Positions 24,201-64,000 of a stretch of 64,000 nucleotides of DNA are shown one piece after another (position 1 is the stretch's first letter; the number at the start of each line of letters is the position of its first letter). This DNA comes from Leucoraja ocellata (Eukaryota): the NCBI GenBank assembly GCA_036785375.1, contig JAWMAR010000060.1:4960001-5024000 (forward strand), in the 5' to 3' direction. The position numbers were made by a program, and so were the translations under genes. A model generated the notes under the pieces. The model was not told the DNA's origin. It saw nothing but the letters and a program-made list of their open reading frames with translations, and made no database searches.

Positions 24201-26544
24201 ACACGTTACCTTAATCTGATATTACCACACTGATGGTGAAGCAAATGTGGCCAATGTGATTTTAGATCAACCATGGAGAAGCTTGATTATTATTATTTTT
24301 TGTTATGAAAACACTGTGCAACGTACACAGAATAGAATATTCAACGTCCTTCCATTAAGCGACGTGATTCATTATGATTTCAACAATTCATACATAGTGA
24401 GGAAAAACCTAGTAACCTAATTTCAAGGACACAACAATTCACAAACTAGCTGACAAGGATTTTTTAAAAATGGACGATGAACCTTTCATCAGAGCTTGTT
24501 ATATAATGAATAAAATATCAGAATAGGTAAATGCAGGTTAGTGGCCATGTGTTATCATGTTCATTTTATTAATGGCCTTTTCAACCAGATATATTGGCGT
24601 CGAAATAAATATGATAAACATACATTGTTTTTGTTTGCTCCTATTCGGACAGAGAGCGGCCATTGACAGGATTTTAATATTCAATTGTTCATGTTTTAAG
24701 GAACAACACATACATGTGATCCGCACACTATTTTACAAAATAACTTGGTTTATATTTACCATATGGAGAGCAAAACATTCCTGGAAATGGAGTATGCTGC
24801 GAAACAAGCAGAAAAGGGGAAACTACTCGTGTTCTGGCACAATCTGACACCCGTAAGCTTTTCCACTGACCTTTGCCTTGAACAGCAATAACTCACCACA
24901 TTAATGAACAATCAAAGGAAGCATTTGAAATACCTCAAAATAAAATCCATTCCGCTAAATGCAGCATCTCTCCCTGCTCGCATATATTCCTTCATGTGAA
25001 ATCCGGCGTTCAGAGTGCAATCTCTTTAGAAGAAAAAAGCTGGCTCTTAACAGAAAGTGGAAAAGCGTAATCACAGCCGAAGCCAGCCTGGGTCTCCGAT
25101 CCAAATGCCACAATAATGCGCTGTATTATGTGCTCACGTGGTCATACGTCAACTTAAATCCTTTTATTTGAATTTGGAGATAATTAAAGGAATGCCCTTT
25201 TCAGGCAAAGCCTAACTTTTTACCCAACAAATCCTAACAAGTTTCTTAAGATCAGTTTTGTTGGTATTGCAGAAGGTTGTTCCGTGACGATTCTTTGCAG
25301 GAAATCCTCGATAAGGTAAGTTGGGTCGTCTGTGTCTCATGGTGTGAAAGACCTCCATCCGGAGCCTGTAGGCTGAACTACTTGGAGCAGAAGAATATCA
25401 GTTTATAATGAATTAAAACTAAGGCCTGGAGTTTAAATCGATCTATGAGAAGCGAGCACTCCACATTTTCGACCAAAACAAGCAGGGAAGCCCCAGAGCG
25501 GTTAAGCTTCTATGCGACTCTTCCTTTTCAGGGCGTGCTTTTTAGAGCGCTATTGTATTGGACTTGCTTAACACCCACACGTTACACCAAGCTACTTATG
25601 GGAACTAGAAAAGGTTTGTATTTACCTGACAAAGACAAAGCAGTCACGGAAAGCTAAGGTGATGTTAGTCAGTGCAGCACAGGGTGAGGGGTGGACTTGA
25701 CAAGGATGTGATGGTACTGATTTTTCCACCATTTGTATCGTAAACCGTGCCCGTGGGGACCCTAATGCAAAATGTATGTTTAGATGCTTTAGGGCAATTG
25801 GATAACTCACATACATTTCTTGGCGTAAAAATAGTACAAATACTTTCAAGGCGAAACTTGTTTATTATTCACTGGGAACCTCTGAGGATGATTGAGCAAC
25901 TGCATTAAATTGATAGAATTGAAACTCGGGAGTAAAGGTTTATTCTTTAAGCTATTCATTGGTACACCATTCACTGAAAGTTTAGGAGCATAACTTATCT
26001 AAGGAAATATATTAGTACGCCTATCATTTTCCTGCGAGTGGAATTGTTAAAATACCTTTAATGCAAGAATTCGTAATTAATATATTTCTATTCTACGCAA
26101 GTAAATTAATTAATTTAAAATTGTTTGTAAAACGCTGCTTCCCTTTGTAAATGATATCCTGCACAAATAACCTTTATTATGTTGTTTATACTTTCTTAAC
26201 ATCCTTCCACTCCTACTATCTTGCTATTTCTTATTTCGAAAACACATTATTTAAATATACATTCTAATTTAATCCACACCGTGGATACTCTTAAAGGTCT
26301 ATTCTCGTCAGTGGATATTGTCTAAGGCCAAGATGGCTCTGAATGACACACTCTGAACTTTTTTTGGAAAAACTCGCATATAATTTAAGTTTTCTGGTGA
26401 ACGGATAAGAAAACCCGGTGATAGATTGATTAAAATTATGATCGTTATAGTTTTTTAAATGAAGTGCGTTGACTAATCTATTTTACTTTTAAACTCAGTA
26501 AACTTTTCAATGATTGCATATTCTCAAGATTCATAGTTCCAACC

Positions 26545-61234: not shown

Positions 61235-61628
61235 CTGCATTCCTCATCCAGGGGTAAATCCGGAAATTGCTCTCTGCTTGAGGGTGCACGTTTGTCTGAT
61301 CCAATTTTTCGCAGCCCTGTTTGCTCAGATCGCTGCAAAGTACTGGAATGTTCTGGTCTAAGGCAGAGCAGCGCAGGTTGTAGGAATCTGAATTTAGGTT
61401 ATAACCTGTGTTGTACATGGAAGGGCCGTGATAGATTGCACTGTTAACATTGTACAGCCCGGCCATCGGGGTTGGGAAGGCGCTCGCGCCCGCTCCATAG
61501 CTCGATCTTTGTGAGTTCGCAGCAAAGGCGCAAGAAGTTGCTTCTGAAAAGCCACTCGTGTTCTGGAAAACGGATGTCCCCGCCGTATATTTGGGAAAAA
61601 GAGCATTCACATAATACGACGAACTCAT
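61235..61628 (-). CDS. HOXA7: Homeobox protein Hox-A7, coding exon 1
   Basis: MSSSYYVNALFPKYTAG start, NFRIYPWMRN hexapeptide, donor GCAG|GTATG, phase 1. Confidence 0.97.
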
Positions 61629-62643
61629 AATTTTGTCTGGTGATTTGTTGGCCGAGACTCTTCAGTGTCGGTTTTACGAGATAGCGTGATATATGGCAGC
61701 ATTACACCCCCGATTTACACCAAACACCCATTTTCCTTCGGTCCGACTTATTTCTATTCACGTGACCCGACCATGTGATCCCGTCACCCAATAGCATCTC
61801 ACATCACAGGTGGTAAATATCATGTTATTCGACTATTTTCAAAATAAATTATGCAAGAATCATATAAAATATTACATTATTAATAAAGATGGGTTGTGGA
61901 ACTTTCCAAAAGTAAGTATCTTCTAACAAGTTCATGACAAGTCAACCCCCCACACGTATGTGGAAAATTTCACAGCGCAGGTATGTTCCCAACGCTTTTG
62001 AATATGAGATGCACGATGAATTTGGAAATGTAATGAAAGGTTTTCTTTGACACAAAAAAAAAGAGACATGCTGATTTGACCATAGAAATAAACAAGATTC
62101 GTGCACAGAAAAATATCGATCAACATTAGCAAGTCCTTTCTGCAATTTGCTTTAAAAAACGATTAAATGGTTTCAATTAAAAGACAAGCGCTCTTCCATT
62201 GTCCCTCACACCCCCTGCGCGAGTTTGCTGTTATTTCAGCAATATGAAATCCTGCAGGAATCTGGGGGGTGGTGGGAGTTAGGTAGGGGCTGGGGACCTG
62301 TGGTACTGCAACCTTACTGAATTACTGATTAGGGTTCATCTAATCTCTAGATTACAGGATAATCTACGTGGTTTTAGTGAGGACTAGAAATGGGAGAGGT
62401 ATAAACCGCAGTAATGCTGCAAGGGGATTGGGCGGGGCATCACTGAGAAATCAGCTCCTGCTAGGAGCTCTCCATCTTTTTATAGATCCAGTCATGTTTG
62501 TATATTGATTTACTGAAATACATAACTTCATTTTGTAAACTACCGCACTTCCTCTGCCGTTTCAATGCTACCGCTATTCCGTGGAAACCTCTTGGAGTTG
62601 CTAGGTAATCTGACTAGATCCCCGCAGGGGATTGAACCCGGCA

Positions 62644-62965
62644 TCATTTCCTCCTTTTGTTTTACAACTTTTTACTCTGTCTCTTTCTCTCAGTAGATCA
62701 TGGAAGGTGTCTCCGAAAACAGTTTCCTTGCAATTGCGACAGTTACTCTACTTTGGCTTTGGTTACTTCCTAGCGGAATTGTTGCCTTAATGCACAAGAT
62801 TCAGAGTTATATTTGTTCGATGTTACACGTAGGCAAGGAAACCCAGGCCACTGTATTTACAGCAGATACACAACGATGCACCTGGTACGTTTAAAGTAAA
62901 GGCTTATTGCAATAAAATATGTTTCTGCATTTGCGTCTGAAACCCTTAAGGAAGTATAAGCTCAT
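62644..62965 (-). pseudogene. Possible decayed Hox8 (HoxA8) relic
   Basis: Collinear degenerate motifs: MSLYFLK....KCR (cf. MSSYFVN....KYK), FPCLR (cf. FPWMR), QSQSR (cf. QTYSR), KE-LF, TER..QVK, *NKRRK* (cf. QNRRMKW), with indels and stops. Aligned by eye only. Confidence 0.45.
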
Positions 62966-63547
62966 ATTATTAACTGCGATTTTCTTTTGAACTCTGGGTC
63001 TCTTCGGCTAGAGGCAGTGCTAGTTTTATGCAGAAAGGCTTTCCACCAGCGATGATGTTTTATCGGGAGATTATTGGATTGCATTCGTCCCTCGCTCGTT
63101 AAAAGAACAATCTTTAGTTAATATACCTCCAGCCTATAAAACTGTCGGCAATCTCCATGTTTCCTGTACATACCTAAAACGAAACGGCGTGCTAATGTAA
63201 ATATCTCTGAAACGCATGAAGGATGGCTTTGTCTTCTAAACTTTTCATACGTTACAAATGATTTAAAATAAATCCGAAGTCGAGCTGTAAACGAGTTTAG
63301 CAGTGCGACGGAATGCCAGATGATTGTTTAAAAATTAAAAAAATAAGTTTAATTAAAATTAGTTAGGGAAATACATAGCATGGGGTTGTCGAGCAGAGAA
63401 TATATAACGCATAACGTGTAAAACAGTCATATTTTCGAAGTTTAAACATTGCTCGCTGAAAATAGGTTACCGCTACCGATTTTGCTTAGATTGGATCTAA
63501 CGGCTCTCCGACGAAAACACGAGTGAAAGGAAGGGGGTAATGAAATA

Positions 63548-63577: not shown

Positions 63578-64000
63578 CAACTGAATAAAATCTGCAATCA
63601 GTCCAAGTAATCCTACTTTAATAAAAAACAAAAAAAATGCCCTTAAATTAAGTCAAAATGTGCAAAGATCACCGACACTTCTCAAAGTTGCATATATTAA
63701 TTTCCAAATAATATGCAGCAGGAATTTGCCAAAACTGTTTTTTCCACTTATATTTGGTACTTTATTTCCCCATTTCCCAGGAATTCTAGTTTCTCCGTAC
63801 TGTTGCCCTTTGAACATTGCGACCGCGTTGCCCTAGATGCACGTTCATATATTTGGCTAAAATTAAAACACTCTATCCTGCATATTAAGTCCGATTGTAT
63901 TGGAGTATCTAATAAAATTGTGTATTCGCTAATAAAACACTGATATTGTTTGTGTAGCAATAATGTTGAATTCTTATTTTCTTTTATTACCAGGAGTCAG

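What the first reader, a model, noticed from the sequence alone, without database searches (positions are those of the whole stretch)
62644..62965. Possible fossil of the lost HoxA8 gene upstream of HoxA7
Seen, on the minus strand and in gene order: ATG AGC TTA TAC TTC CTT AAG GGT TTC AGA CGC AAA TGC AGA from 62965 (MSLYFLKGFRRKCR); TTT CCT TGC CTA CGT then GTAAC at 62841-62822 (FPCLR plus a donor-like GT); CAA AGC CAA AGT AGA near 62761; AAG GAA a CTG TTT near 62729; CAT GAT CT; ACT GAG AGA [AAGAGA] CAG a GTA AAA; TTG TAA AAC AAA AGG AGG AAA TGA ending at 62644. Established: PG8 proteins start MSSYFVNxLFSKYK, have an FPWMR hexapeptide and a homeodomain [36 protein letters not shown], and gnathostome HoxA clusters lack a functional PG8 gene. 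Most aligned codons differ by 0-1 nt, and the residues retained (SR, LF, QVK) are those that separate PG8 from PG5-7. Inference: a deletion-collapsed (about 320 nt) HoxA8 remnant in the right slot and orientation. Caveats: by-eye alignment with many indels, strong compaction and great age. I cannot tell whether it has been reported before.
Basis: partly seen in the sequence, partly recalled or inferred. Interest (0 to 1): 0.85.

Follow-up and report, generated by a model that had tools for sequence, protein, structure and literature searches.

The report
Faint possible fossil of lost HoxA8
In this shark-or-ray genome, the slot where jawed vertebrates lost the body-patterning gene HoxA8 holds a faint, non-coding trace of a Hox start and homeobox end that is possibly the gene's decayed remains, but the match is only borderline above chance.

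Summary
The window is an elasmobranch HoxA cluster. With a codon-level profile, the best group-8 start match (62965-62924) and best homeobox match (ending 62645) in the 7.6-kb A7-A9 gap both fall here, in gene order. The spacing resembles HoxD8 and HoxB8. Significance is borderline: 5 of 250 shuffles with a fixed background, 33 of 400 with local composition; 3 to 13 of 231 other real 2.5-kb windows score as high. Stiff-gap scoring gives nothing. The claim of group-8-specific residues fails: groups 4-8 fit the homeobox equally and group 5 fits the start better. The hexapeptide and middle blocks are not above chance. Controls split: the same method finds a HoxA14 pseudogene clearly but no HoxD7 coding trace. 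Verdict: about even odds of a real HoxA8 unitary pseudogene; it cannot encode a protein. No report of it in ten library searches, but the key early papers were not held. Orthologous DNA from other species, the decisive test, was out of reach.

The parts
62924..62965 (-). ATG block resembling the start of group 8 and group 5 Hox proteins; reads MSLYFLKGFRRKCR; the frame stops after 24 residues
62822..62841 (-). hexapeptide-like FPCLR followed by GT; not above chance on its own
62644..62702 (-). purine-rich block resembling homeobox helix 3 ([20 protein letters not shown]), frameshifted; best homeobox match in the A7-A9 gap
62280..62286 (-). single CTACCTA heptamer (miR-196 seed match; seed recalled) about 360 nt after the helix-3 block; D8 and B8 carry their miR-196-type sites 411 and 386 nt after their stop codons; weak, about 6% by chance per kb
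61632..61734 (-). HoxA7 promoter and 5' UTR element, conserved before HoxB7 (81%) and downstream of HoxD8 (72%); used as positional anchor
61235..61628 (-). HoxA7 exon 1 (context)

Best explanation
The stretch is possibly the eroded remnant (unitary pseudogene) of HoxA8, a copy that was likely made redundant by the early vertebrate genome duplications and then lost; it encodes no Hox protein. Shown: it lies in the empty group-8 slot on the gene strand, has start-like and helix-3-like blocks in gene order, and has no open frame (24 residues from the ATG). Inferred: after loss of function, deletions removed about 280 nt of exon 1 and about 240 nt or more around the intron, and point changes and small indels eroded the rest to roughly 0.45 substitutions per site. 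Inferred: the trace survives because elasmobranch Hox clusters change slowly and take in few repeats. Untested: part of it may now be held as regulatory DNA for HoxA7, 1.0-1.3 kb away.
For: Top group-8 start match and top homeobox match of the 7.64-kb gap coincide, 280 nt apart and in order; chained score 13.0 bits, 5 of 250 shuffles, 3-10 of 150 with 200- to 40-nt shuffle blocks, 8 and 13 of 500 in the proximal 2.5 kb. Of 5 ATG blocks with at most 11 changes in 598 kb, only this one has a homeobox-like match above 10 bits downstream. Real homeobox DNA of A5, D5, A7 and D8 each picks the same end point 62645 (0-3 of 200 shuffles). Geometry: A9 helix 3 to this ATG 6.38 kb, D9 to D8 ATG 6.53 kb; homeobox end to the group-7 promoter element 0.9 kb here, 1.2 kb in D, 1.7 kb in B. 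The same method finds a HoxA14 remnant in this cluster (22.5 bits, null maximum 13.0 in 20 shuffles), so old Hox fossils do persist here. Simulated decay of D8 to 0.45 substitutions per site gives median scores of 13.8 and 10.5, close to the observed 13.0 and 9.4.
Against: Stiff-gap Viterbi scoring is not significant (group-8 homeodomain 235-377 of 500). With local composition the homeobox alone gives 122 of 400 and the chain 33 of 400. Real DNA reaches the chain score elsewhere: 5 other loci in 598 kb with fixed background, 15-21 with local background. Group 5 fits better than group 8 (start plus homeobox: B5 17.3, D5 15.1, A5 13.7 versus B8 12.4, D8 11.8, C8 10.9 bits). B8 homeobox DNA gives only 28 of 200, and A6, B5 and B6 give about 200 of 200. 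Direct DNA alignment of the start region to D8 and B8 exon 1 has z about 0. The upstream element shared by B8 and D8 is not found in A (156 of 300). HoxD7, a loss of similar age, leaves no detectable coding trace even with an exact anchor. The A14 remnant is not compacted (exons 3.1 kb apart), whereas this reading needs about 950 nt or more to shrink to 320. Several models and settings were tried, and the proximal window was set after the site was known.
Confidence: 0.5

Rival explanations
1. Chance resemblance in ordinary, slowly evolving HoxA7 upstream DNA. A purine-rich patch mimics the purine-rich helix-3 codons once several indels are allowed, and an unrelated ATG block happens to lie nearby. 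Any function is cis-regulatory and has nothing to do with a Hox8 origin.
For: The homeobox score drops from 10.8 to 6.4-7.3 bits with local background, a level reached by 81 loci in 598 kb. 13 of 231 other real windows match the local chain score. A site in the HoxD8-D5 gap scores higher with the group-8 homeodomain model under local background (12.9 bits) where no group-8 gene is expected. In 7 of 81 real 7.64-kb windows the top start match lies within 400 nt upstream of the top homeobox match. The by-eye D7 alignment failed. No group-8 specificity.
Against: Only 3 of 231 other windows reach both scores. The ATG-anchored block is rare and the only one with a downstream homeobox-like match. 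Strand, order and distance all match the paralogues. Local-background scoring also penalises true helix-3 remnants, which are purine-rich.
Confidence: 0.43
2. A real Hox-derived fragment that is not HoxA8: a decayed partial or intron-less copy of a group-5-like or other central Hox gene that landed in this gap.
For: Group-5 starts and A5 and D5 homeobox DNA score best. The distance from the hexapeptide-like F to the final W-like codon is 198 nt, the spliced length in B8, C8, A7 and B7.
Against: The middle of those 198 nt is no closer to a homeodomain than shuffles, and a spliced model does not beat the homeobox alone. Group 5 and group 8 starts share MSSYFVN, so a 3-5 bit lead among 13 models is weak. 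Gnathostome Hox clusters rarely accept insertions (PMC2746220, parts 1-3 of 4 read). The stretch is single-copy.
Confidence: 0.07

Closest known systems
HoxA14 and HoxB14 pseudogenes of cartilaginous fishes (PMC3707753 and PMC3509897, passages read)
   Same: Decayed Hox coding DNA left in its own slot of the cluster after loss of one paralogue; a HoxA14-like remnant is detectable in this same cluster.
   Different: The A14 remnant scores 22.5 bits, clear of the null, with exons 3.1 kb apart. The candidate scores 7-11 bits for the homeobox, is compacted to 320 nt, and concerns a gene with no intact copy described in the A cluster of jawed vertebrates (PMC3394115 legend lists Hoxa8 as non-existent in mouse and human; wider absence is recalled).
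Intact HoxB8, HoxC8 and HoxD8 (own D8 = L020, own B8 = L018, proteins P0089, P0096, P0100, P0102)
   Same: Start-like block, helix-3-like block, strand, order, distance from group 9 and from the group-7 promoter element.
   Different: No open frame, no recognisable middle of exon 1 or intron, no shared upstream element, no group-8-specific score.
Bowfin and gar hoxd14 pseudogenes (PMC8423624, passages read)
   Same: Dead Hox gene in situ; shows that such remnants can stay transcribed.
   Different: Those keep a recognisable homeodomain motif and splice junction; expression of the candidate was not tested.

Membership tests
Hox group-8 gene or unitary pseudogene (HoxA8) | Located between group 9 and group 7 on the cluster's coding strand, at paralogue-like distances | tested here: met
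   6.38 kb from A9 helix 3 (D: 6.53 kb); 0.9 kb to the group-7 promoter element (D 1.2, B 1.7)
Hox group-8 gene or unitary pseudogene (HoxA8) | Homeobox similarity above chance | tested here: inconclusive
   best in the gap; 10 of 250, 122 of 400 with local background, 235-377 of 500 with stiff gaps
Hox group-8 gene or unitary pseudogene (HoxA8) | Homeodomain closer to group 8 than to groups 4-7 | tested here: not met
   groups 4-8 score 10.7-11.3 bits alike; A5 and D5 DNA best. Expected after heavy decay, so it lowers the label more than the fossil reading
Hox group-8 gene or unitary pseudogene (HoxA8) | N-terminus of MSSYFVNxLFSKYK type | tested here: inconclusive
   fits group 8 (8.7-9.4 bits) far better than groups 4, 6, 7 (0.2-4.7) but group 5 better still (10.4-12.3)
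Hox group-8 gene or unitary pseudogene (HoxA8) | FPWMR hexapeptide followed by a splice donor | tested here: inconclusive
   4-6 bits with group-8 models versus -1 to 5 for others; not above chance in the gap
Hox group-8 gene or unitary pseudogene (HoxA8) | Upstream element shared by HoxB8 and HoxD8 | tested here: not met
   found between B and D (0 of 100 shuffles), not in the A7-A9 gap (156 of 300)
Hox group-8 gene or unitary pseudogene (HoxA8) | Coding capacity destroyed (pseudogene) | tested here: met
   ATG frame stops after 24 residues; stops in all three frames
Hox group-8 gene or unitary pseudogene (HoxA8) | Orthologous remnant in other chondrichthyans with an ancestral state closer to Hox8 | not testable with these tools
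   near-identical DNA exists in other organisms but their letters could not be obtained

The most novel reading that the evidence does not exclude
This is a surviving molecular fossil of HoxA8, shared across elasmobranchs. It would be direct physical evidence that the post-duplication HoxA cluster carried a group-8 gene, that the gene decayed in place at or shortly before the origin of living jawed vertebrates, and that its remains may have been kept as HoxA7 regulatory DNA.
Probability: 0.45. Interest if true: 0.62.

Novelty: new member of a known kind. Interest (0 to 1): 0.4.

Why it matters
Reconstructions of the ancestral jawed-vertebrate Hox set infer losses such as HoxA8 from absence alone. 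A physical remnant would show the gene existed in the A cluster, help date its loss relative to the genome duplications and the shark/bony-fish split, and show that slow-evolving elasmobranch genomes can be mined for genes dead for over 400 million years. It would not reveal a new mechanism: in-situ Hox pseudogenes are known for group 14.

Tried and rejected
Plain blastn of D8 and B8 exons against the gap: best exon-2 hit at the candidate but E = 0.12 and 0.85. Stiff-gap Viterbi profile: not significant for group 8; its best exon-1 hit (62221) lay downstream, in the wrong order. Intron-less (spliced) reading, prompted by the 198-nt spacing: rejected. Paralogous flanks: 17 tiles of D8 upstream and downstream DNA gave no convincing colinear match in A; one 28-nt AT-rich match (24 of 28, E = 0.003 in blastn) gave 5-8 of 40 shuffles. 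A HoxD7 exon-1 remnant seen by eye failed. RNA structure: z = 0.64; no Rfam family at the site. Repeat origin: single copy in two own-genome searches. The promoter scan is for bacterial promoters and was ignored. Earlier scan findings: nothing relevant. Literature: ten searches found no report of a HoxA8 remnant. The horn-shark, bichir, elephant-shark and coelacanth cluster papers were not held, and PMC2746220 has no readable supplement.

Full report
Setting. The window holds HoxA1 to HoxA7 on the minus strand; the HoxA7 exon-1 product is 93% identical to chondrichthyan HoxA7. It is G000:C60:4960001-5024000. HoxA9, A10, A11 and A13 follow beyond the window, and no intact group-8 gene lies between A7 and A9. 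The genome has an intact HoxD8 (L020) and a HoxB8 with frameshifts that look like assembly errors (L018); no HoxC8 was found among 150 of 159 candidates scored.

Observation. All quoted fragments are at the stated coordinates. The ATG at 62965 opens a frame of 24 residues; all frames contain stops. The stretch is single-copy, has no Rfam match and no unusual fold. Near-identical DNA is held by runs of several organisms: 20 of 24 listed rows hold part of 62300-63300, with organisms B to F at shares of 0.62-0.85 in rows listed as DNA or of unknown kind. High identity is normal across elasmobranch HoxA intergenic DNA (PMC2746220, parts 1-3 of 4 read), so this says little about origin.

Is it more than chance? 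I built profiles from 49 full-length Hox8 and 52 Hox7 proteins (taken from the 120 listed of 233 hits) and scanned the 7.64-kb A7-A9 gap. With stiff gaps nothing is significant (group-8 homeodomain 235-377 of 500 shuffles). With summed, indel-tolerant scoring the best homeobox match on the gene strand ends at 62645, with 9-60 of 300 shuffles reaching it across six settings. A codon-level model gives 5-7 of 100 for groups 4-8. Real homeobox DNA from 19 models, one a spurious control and one frameshifted, gave 0-3 of 200 for D5, A5, A7 and D8, 28 of 200 for B8, and about 200 of 200 for A6, B5, B6 and the posterior genes. Chaining start, hexapeptide and homeobox gives 13.0 bits, 5 of 250, and 3-10 of 150 with smaller shuffle blocks. 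The helix-3 block is purine-rich; with a local background the homeobox falls to 7.3 bits (122 of 400) and the chain to 9.4 (33 of 400). Against real DNA, 299 kb of exon-masked HoxA, B and D regions on both strands, 5 other loci reach the fixed-background chain score and 15-21 the local one. In 2.5-kb windows, 5, 13 and 3 of 231 others reach the fixed, local and both scores. An ATG-anchored, ungapped measure is kinder: 4 of 11,169 ATG blocks need at most 10 changes to the group-8 start, and of 5 with at most 11 only the candidate has a homeobox-like match above 10 bits downstream. That measure was chosen after seeing the site. In sum the chance probability lies roughly between 0.005 and 0.08 depending on the test, before allowing for the number of settings tried.

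Which parts carry signal? Only the ATG block and the helix-3 block. The hexapeptide-like piece is beaten somewhere in the gap by 250 of 250 shuffles. The distance from its first codon to the final W-like codon is 198 nt, equal to the spliced length in B8, C8, A7 and B7, but the 44 codons between are no closer than shuffles (73 versus 71.9 changes, 3129 of 5000) and a spliced model does not beat the homeobox alone.

Is it group 8? Not by sequence. Homeodomain models of groups 4-8 score within 0.6 bit. The start fits group 8 (8.7-9.4 bits) much better than groups 4, 6 and 7 but group 5 better still (10.4-12.3). Among 13 gene models, start plus homeobox ranks B5 17.3, D5 15.1, A5 13.7, A6 12.9, B8 12.4, D8 11.8. 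With the hexapeptide added and a local background, B8 (10.0) joins B5 (12.2), D5 (10.4) and A5 (9.6) at the top. The label therefore rests on position. Position is good: A9 helix 3 to the candidate ATG is 6.38 kb, against 6.53 kb from D9 to D8. The group-7 promoter element, conserved in A, B and D (I recall it being called the H8/7-6 four-cluster sequence, unverified), lies 0.9 kb after the candidate's homeobox end, 1.2 kb after D8's and 1.7 kb after B8's. A lone miR-196 seed match (seed recalled) lies at 62286-62280, at a distance similar to the D8 and B8 sites; it is weak. The upstream element that B8 and D8 share is not detectable in A.

Controls. Positive: scanning 46 kb beyond HoxA13 with own HoxD14 exons finds an exon-2 remnant at C60:5074223 (22.5 bits, maximum 13.0 in 20 shuffles) and an exon-1 remnant 3.1 kb upstream (12.7 bits, maximum 10.9 in 6 shuffles); exon 3 was not found. 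Group-14 pseudogenes are described in cartilaginous fishes (PMC3707753 and PMC3509897, passages). By pairwise DNA alignment in chosen windows this remnant has z = 3.3 and the candidate's homeobox part z = 2.6. Negative: the DNA right after the group-7 promoter element in HoxD aligned by eye to HoxA7 exon 1 but was no better than shuffles (208 of 500; anchored 246 of 300). So fossils of this age can survive here, can also vanish, and by-eye alignments mislead. Simulated neutral decay of D8 shows that scores like the candidate's are typical at about 0.45 substitutions per site (band probability 0.16-0.21 versus 0.04-0.06 for shuffles), a likelihood ratio of about 3-4 at the most favourable divergence and near 1 beyond 0.8 (the indel settings were my assumption).

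Mechanism. Most likely reading: a unitary pseudogene. After the vertebrate genome duplications the A copy of Hox8 was redundant with B8, C8 and D8 (established background, recalled), lost function, and shrank by deletion: ATG to hexapeptide 124 nt against 405 in D8, hexapeptide to helix-3 end about 200 nt against about 430. It persisted because the cluster evolves slowly and excludes most repeats (PMC2746220). Location, order and lack of a frame are shown; descent from Hox8, the deletions and any regulatory reuse are inferred. I put this at 0.5, chance resemblance at 0.43, and a non-group-8 Hox fragment at 0.07.

Novelty. Ten searches found no paper describing a HoxA8 remnant. The term HoxA8 occurs in 11 held papers (listing); I read passages of two, both irrelevant or stating absence. 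The skate and horn-shark comparison has no occurrence of pseudogene or Hoxa8. Passages on pseudogenes in PMC3707753, PMC2080641, PMC1845163, PMC3509897 and PMC8423624 do not mention it. The primary cluster papers were not held, and I have an uncertain recollection, not checked, that an early shark or zebrafish paper may have drawn a pseudogene in this slot. If real it is a new member of a known kind. Orthologous sequence from other chondrichthyans would settle it and could not be obtained here.

Noticed in passing
L034 / G000:C60:5074182-5074336 and 5077350-5077404, minus strand: HoxA14 pseudogene remnant about 7.7 kb beyond the HoxA13 homeobox: exon 2 at 22.5 bits and exon 1 at 12.7 bits, in order; exon 3 not found. 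A kind described in other cartilaginous fishes.
   Followed up: partly
L020 / G000:C53:6467057-6467159, minus strand: The HoxA7/HoxB7 promoter and 5' UTR element survives in HoxD, 1.1 kb after HoxD8, although HoxD7 is absent; no coding trace follows it.
   Followed up: yes
G000:C53 near 6462799, minus strand (L021): A homeobox-like match in the HoxD8-D5 gap: 11.1 and 12.9 bits with the group-8 model (4 and 0 of 60 shuffles) but 7.1 with group 7. Chance, or a trace of a lost HoxD6/D7 homeobox.
   Followed up: partly
window near 25485, minus strand (between HoxA3 and HoxA4): Highest chance-type match to the group-8 homeodomain model in the masked Hox regions (17.4 bits fixed, 13-15 local), in a slot where no gene is expected.
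   Followed up: no
G000:C53, 6.43-6.49 Mb and 6.74-6.77 Mb: HoxD genes appear twice, about 290 kb apart, with nearly identical sequence; probably an assembly duplication.
   Followed up: no
L018 (G000:C4716:1484-7200): HoxB8 and HoxB7 show single-base frameshifts in coding DNA on a short 41-kb contig, probably sequencing errors; no HoxC8 found in the assembly.
   Followed up: no
window 7123-7365, plus strand: Rfam HOTAIRM1_2 match (106 bits) between HoxA1 and HoxA2.
   Followed up: no
window 63844-63871, minus strand: 28-nt AT-rich match (24 of 28) to DNA 1.6 kb upstream of HoxD8, colinear; E = 0.003 by blastn but 5-8 of 40 shuffles by profile.
   Followed up: partly
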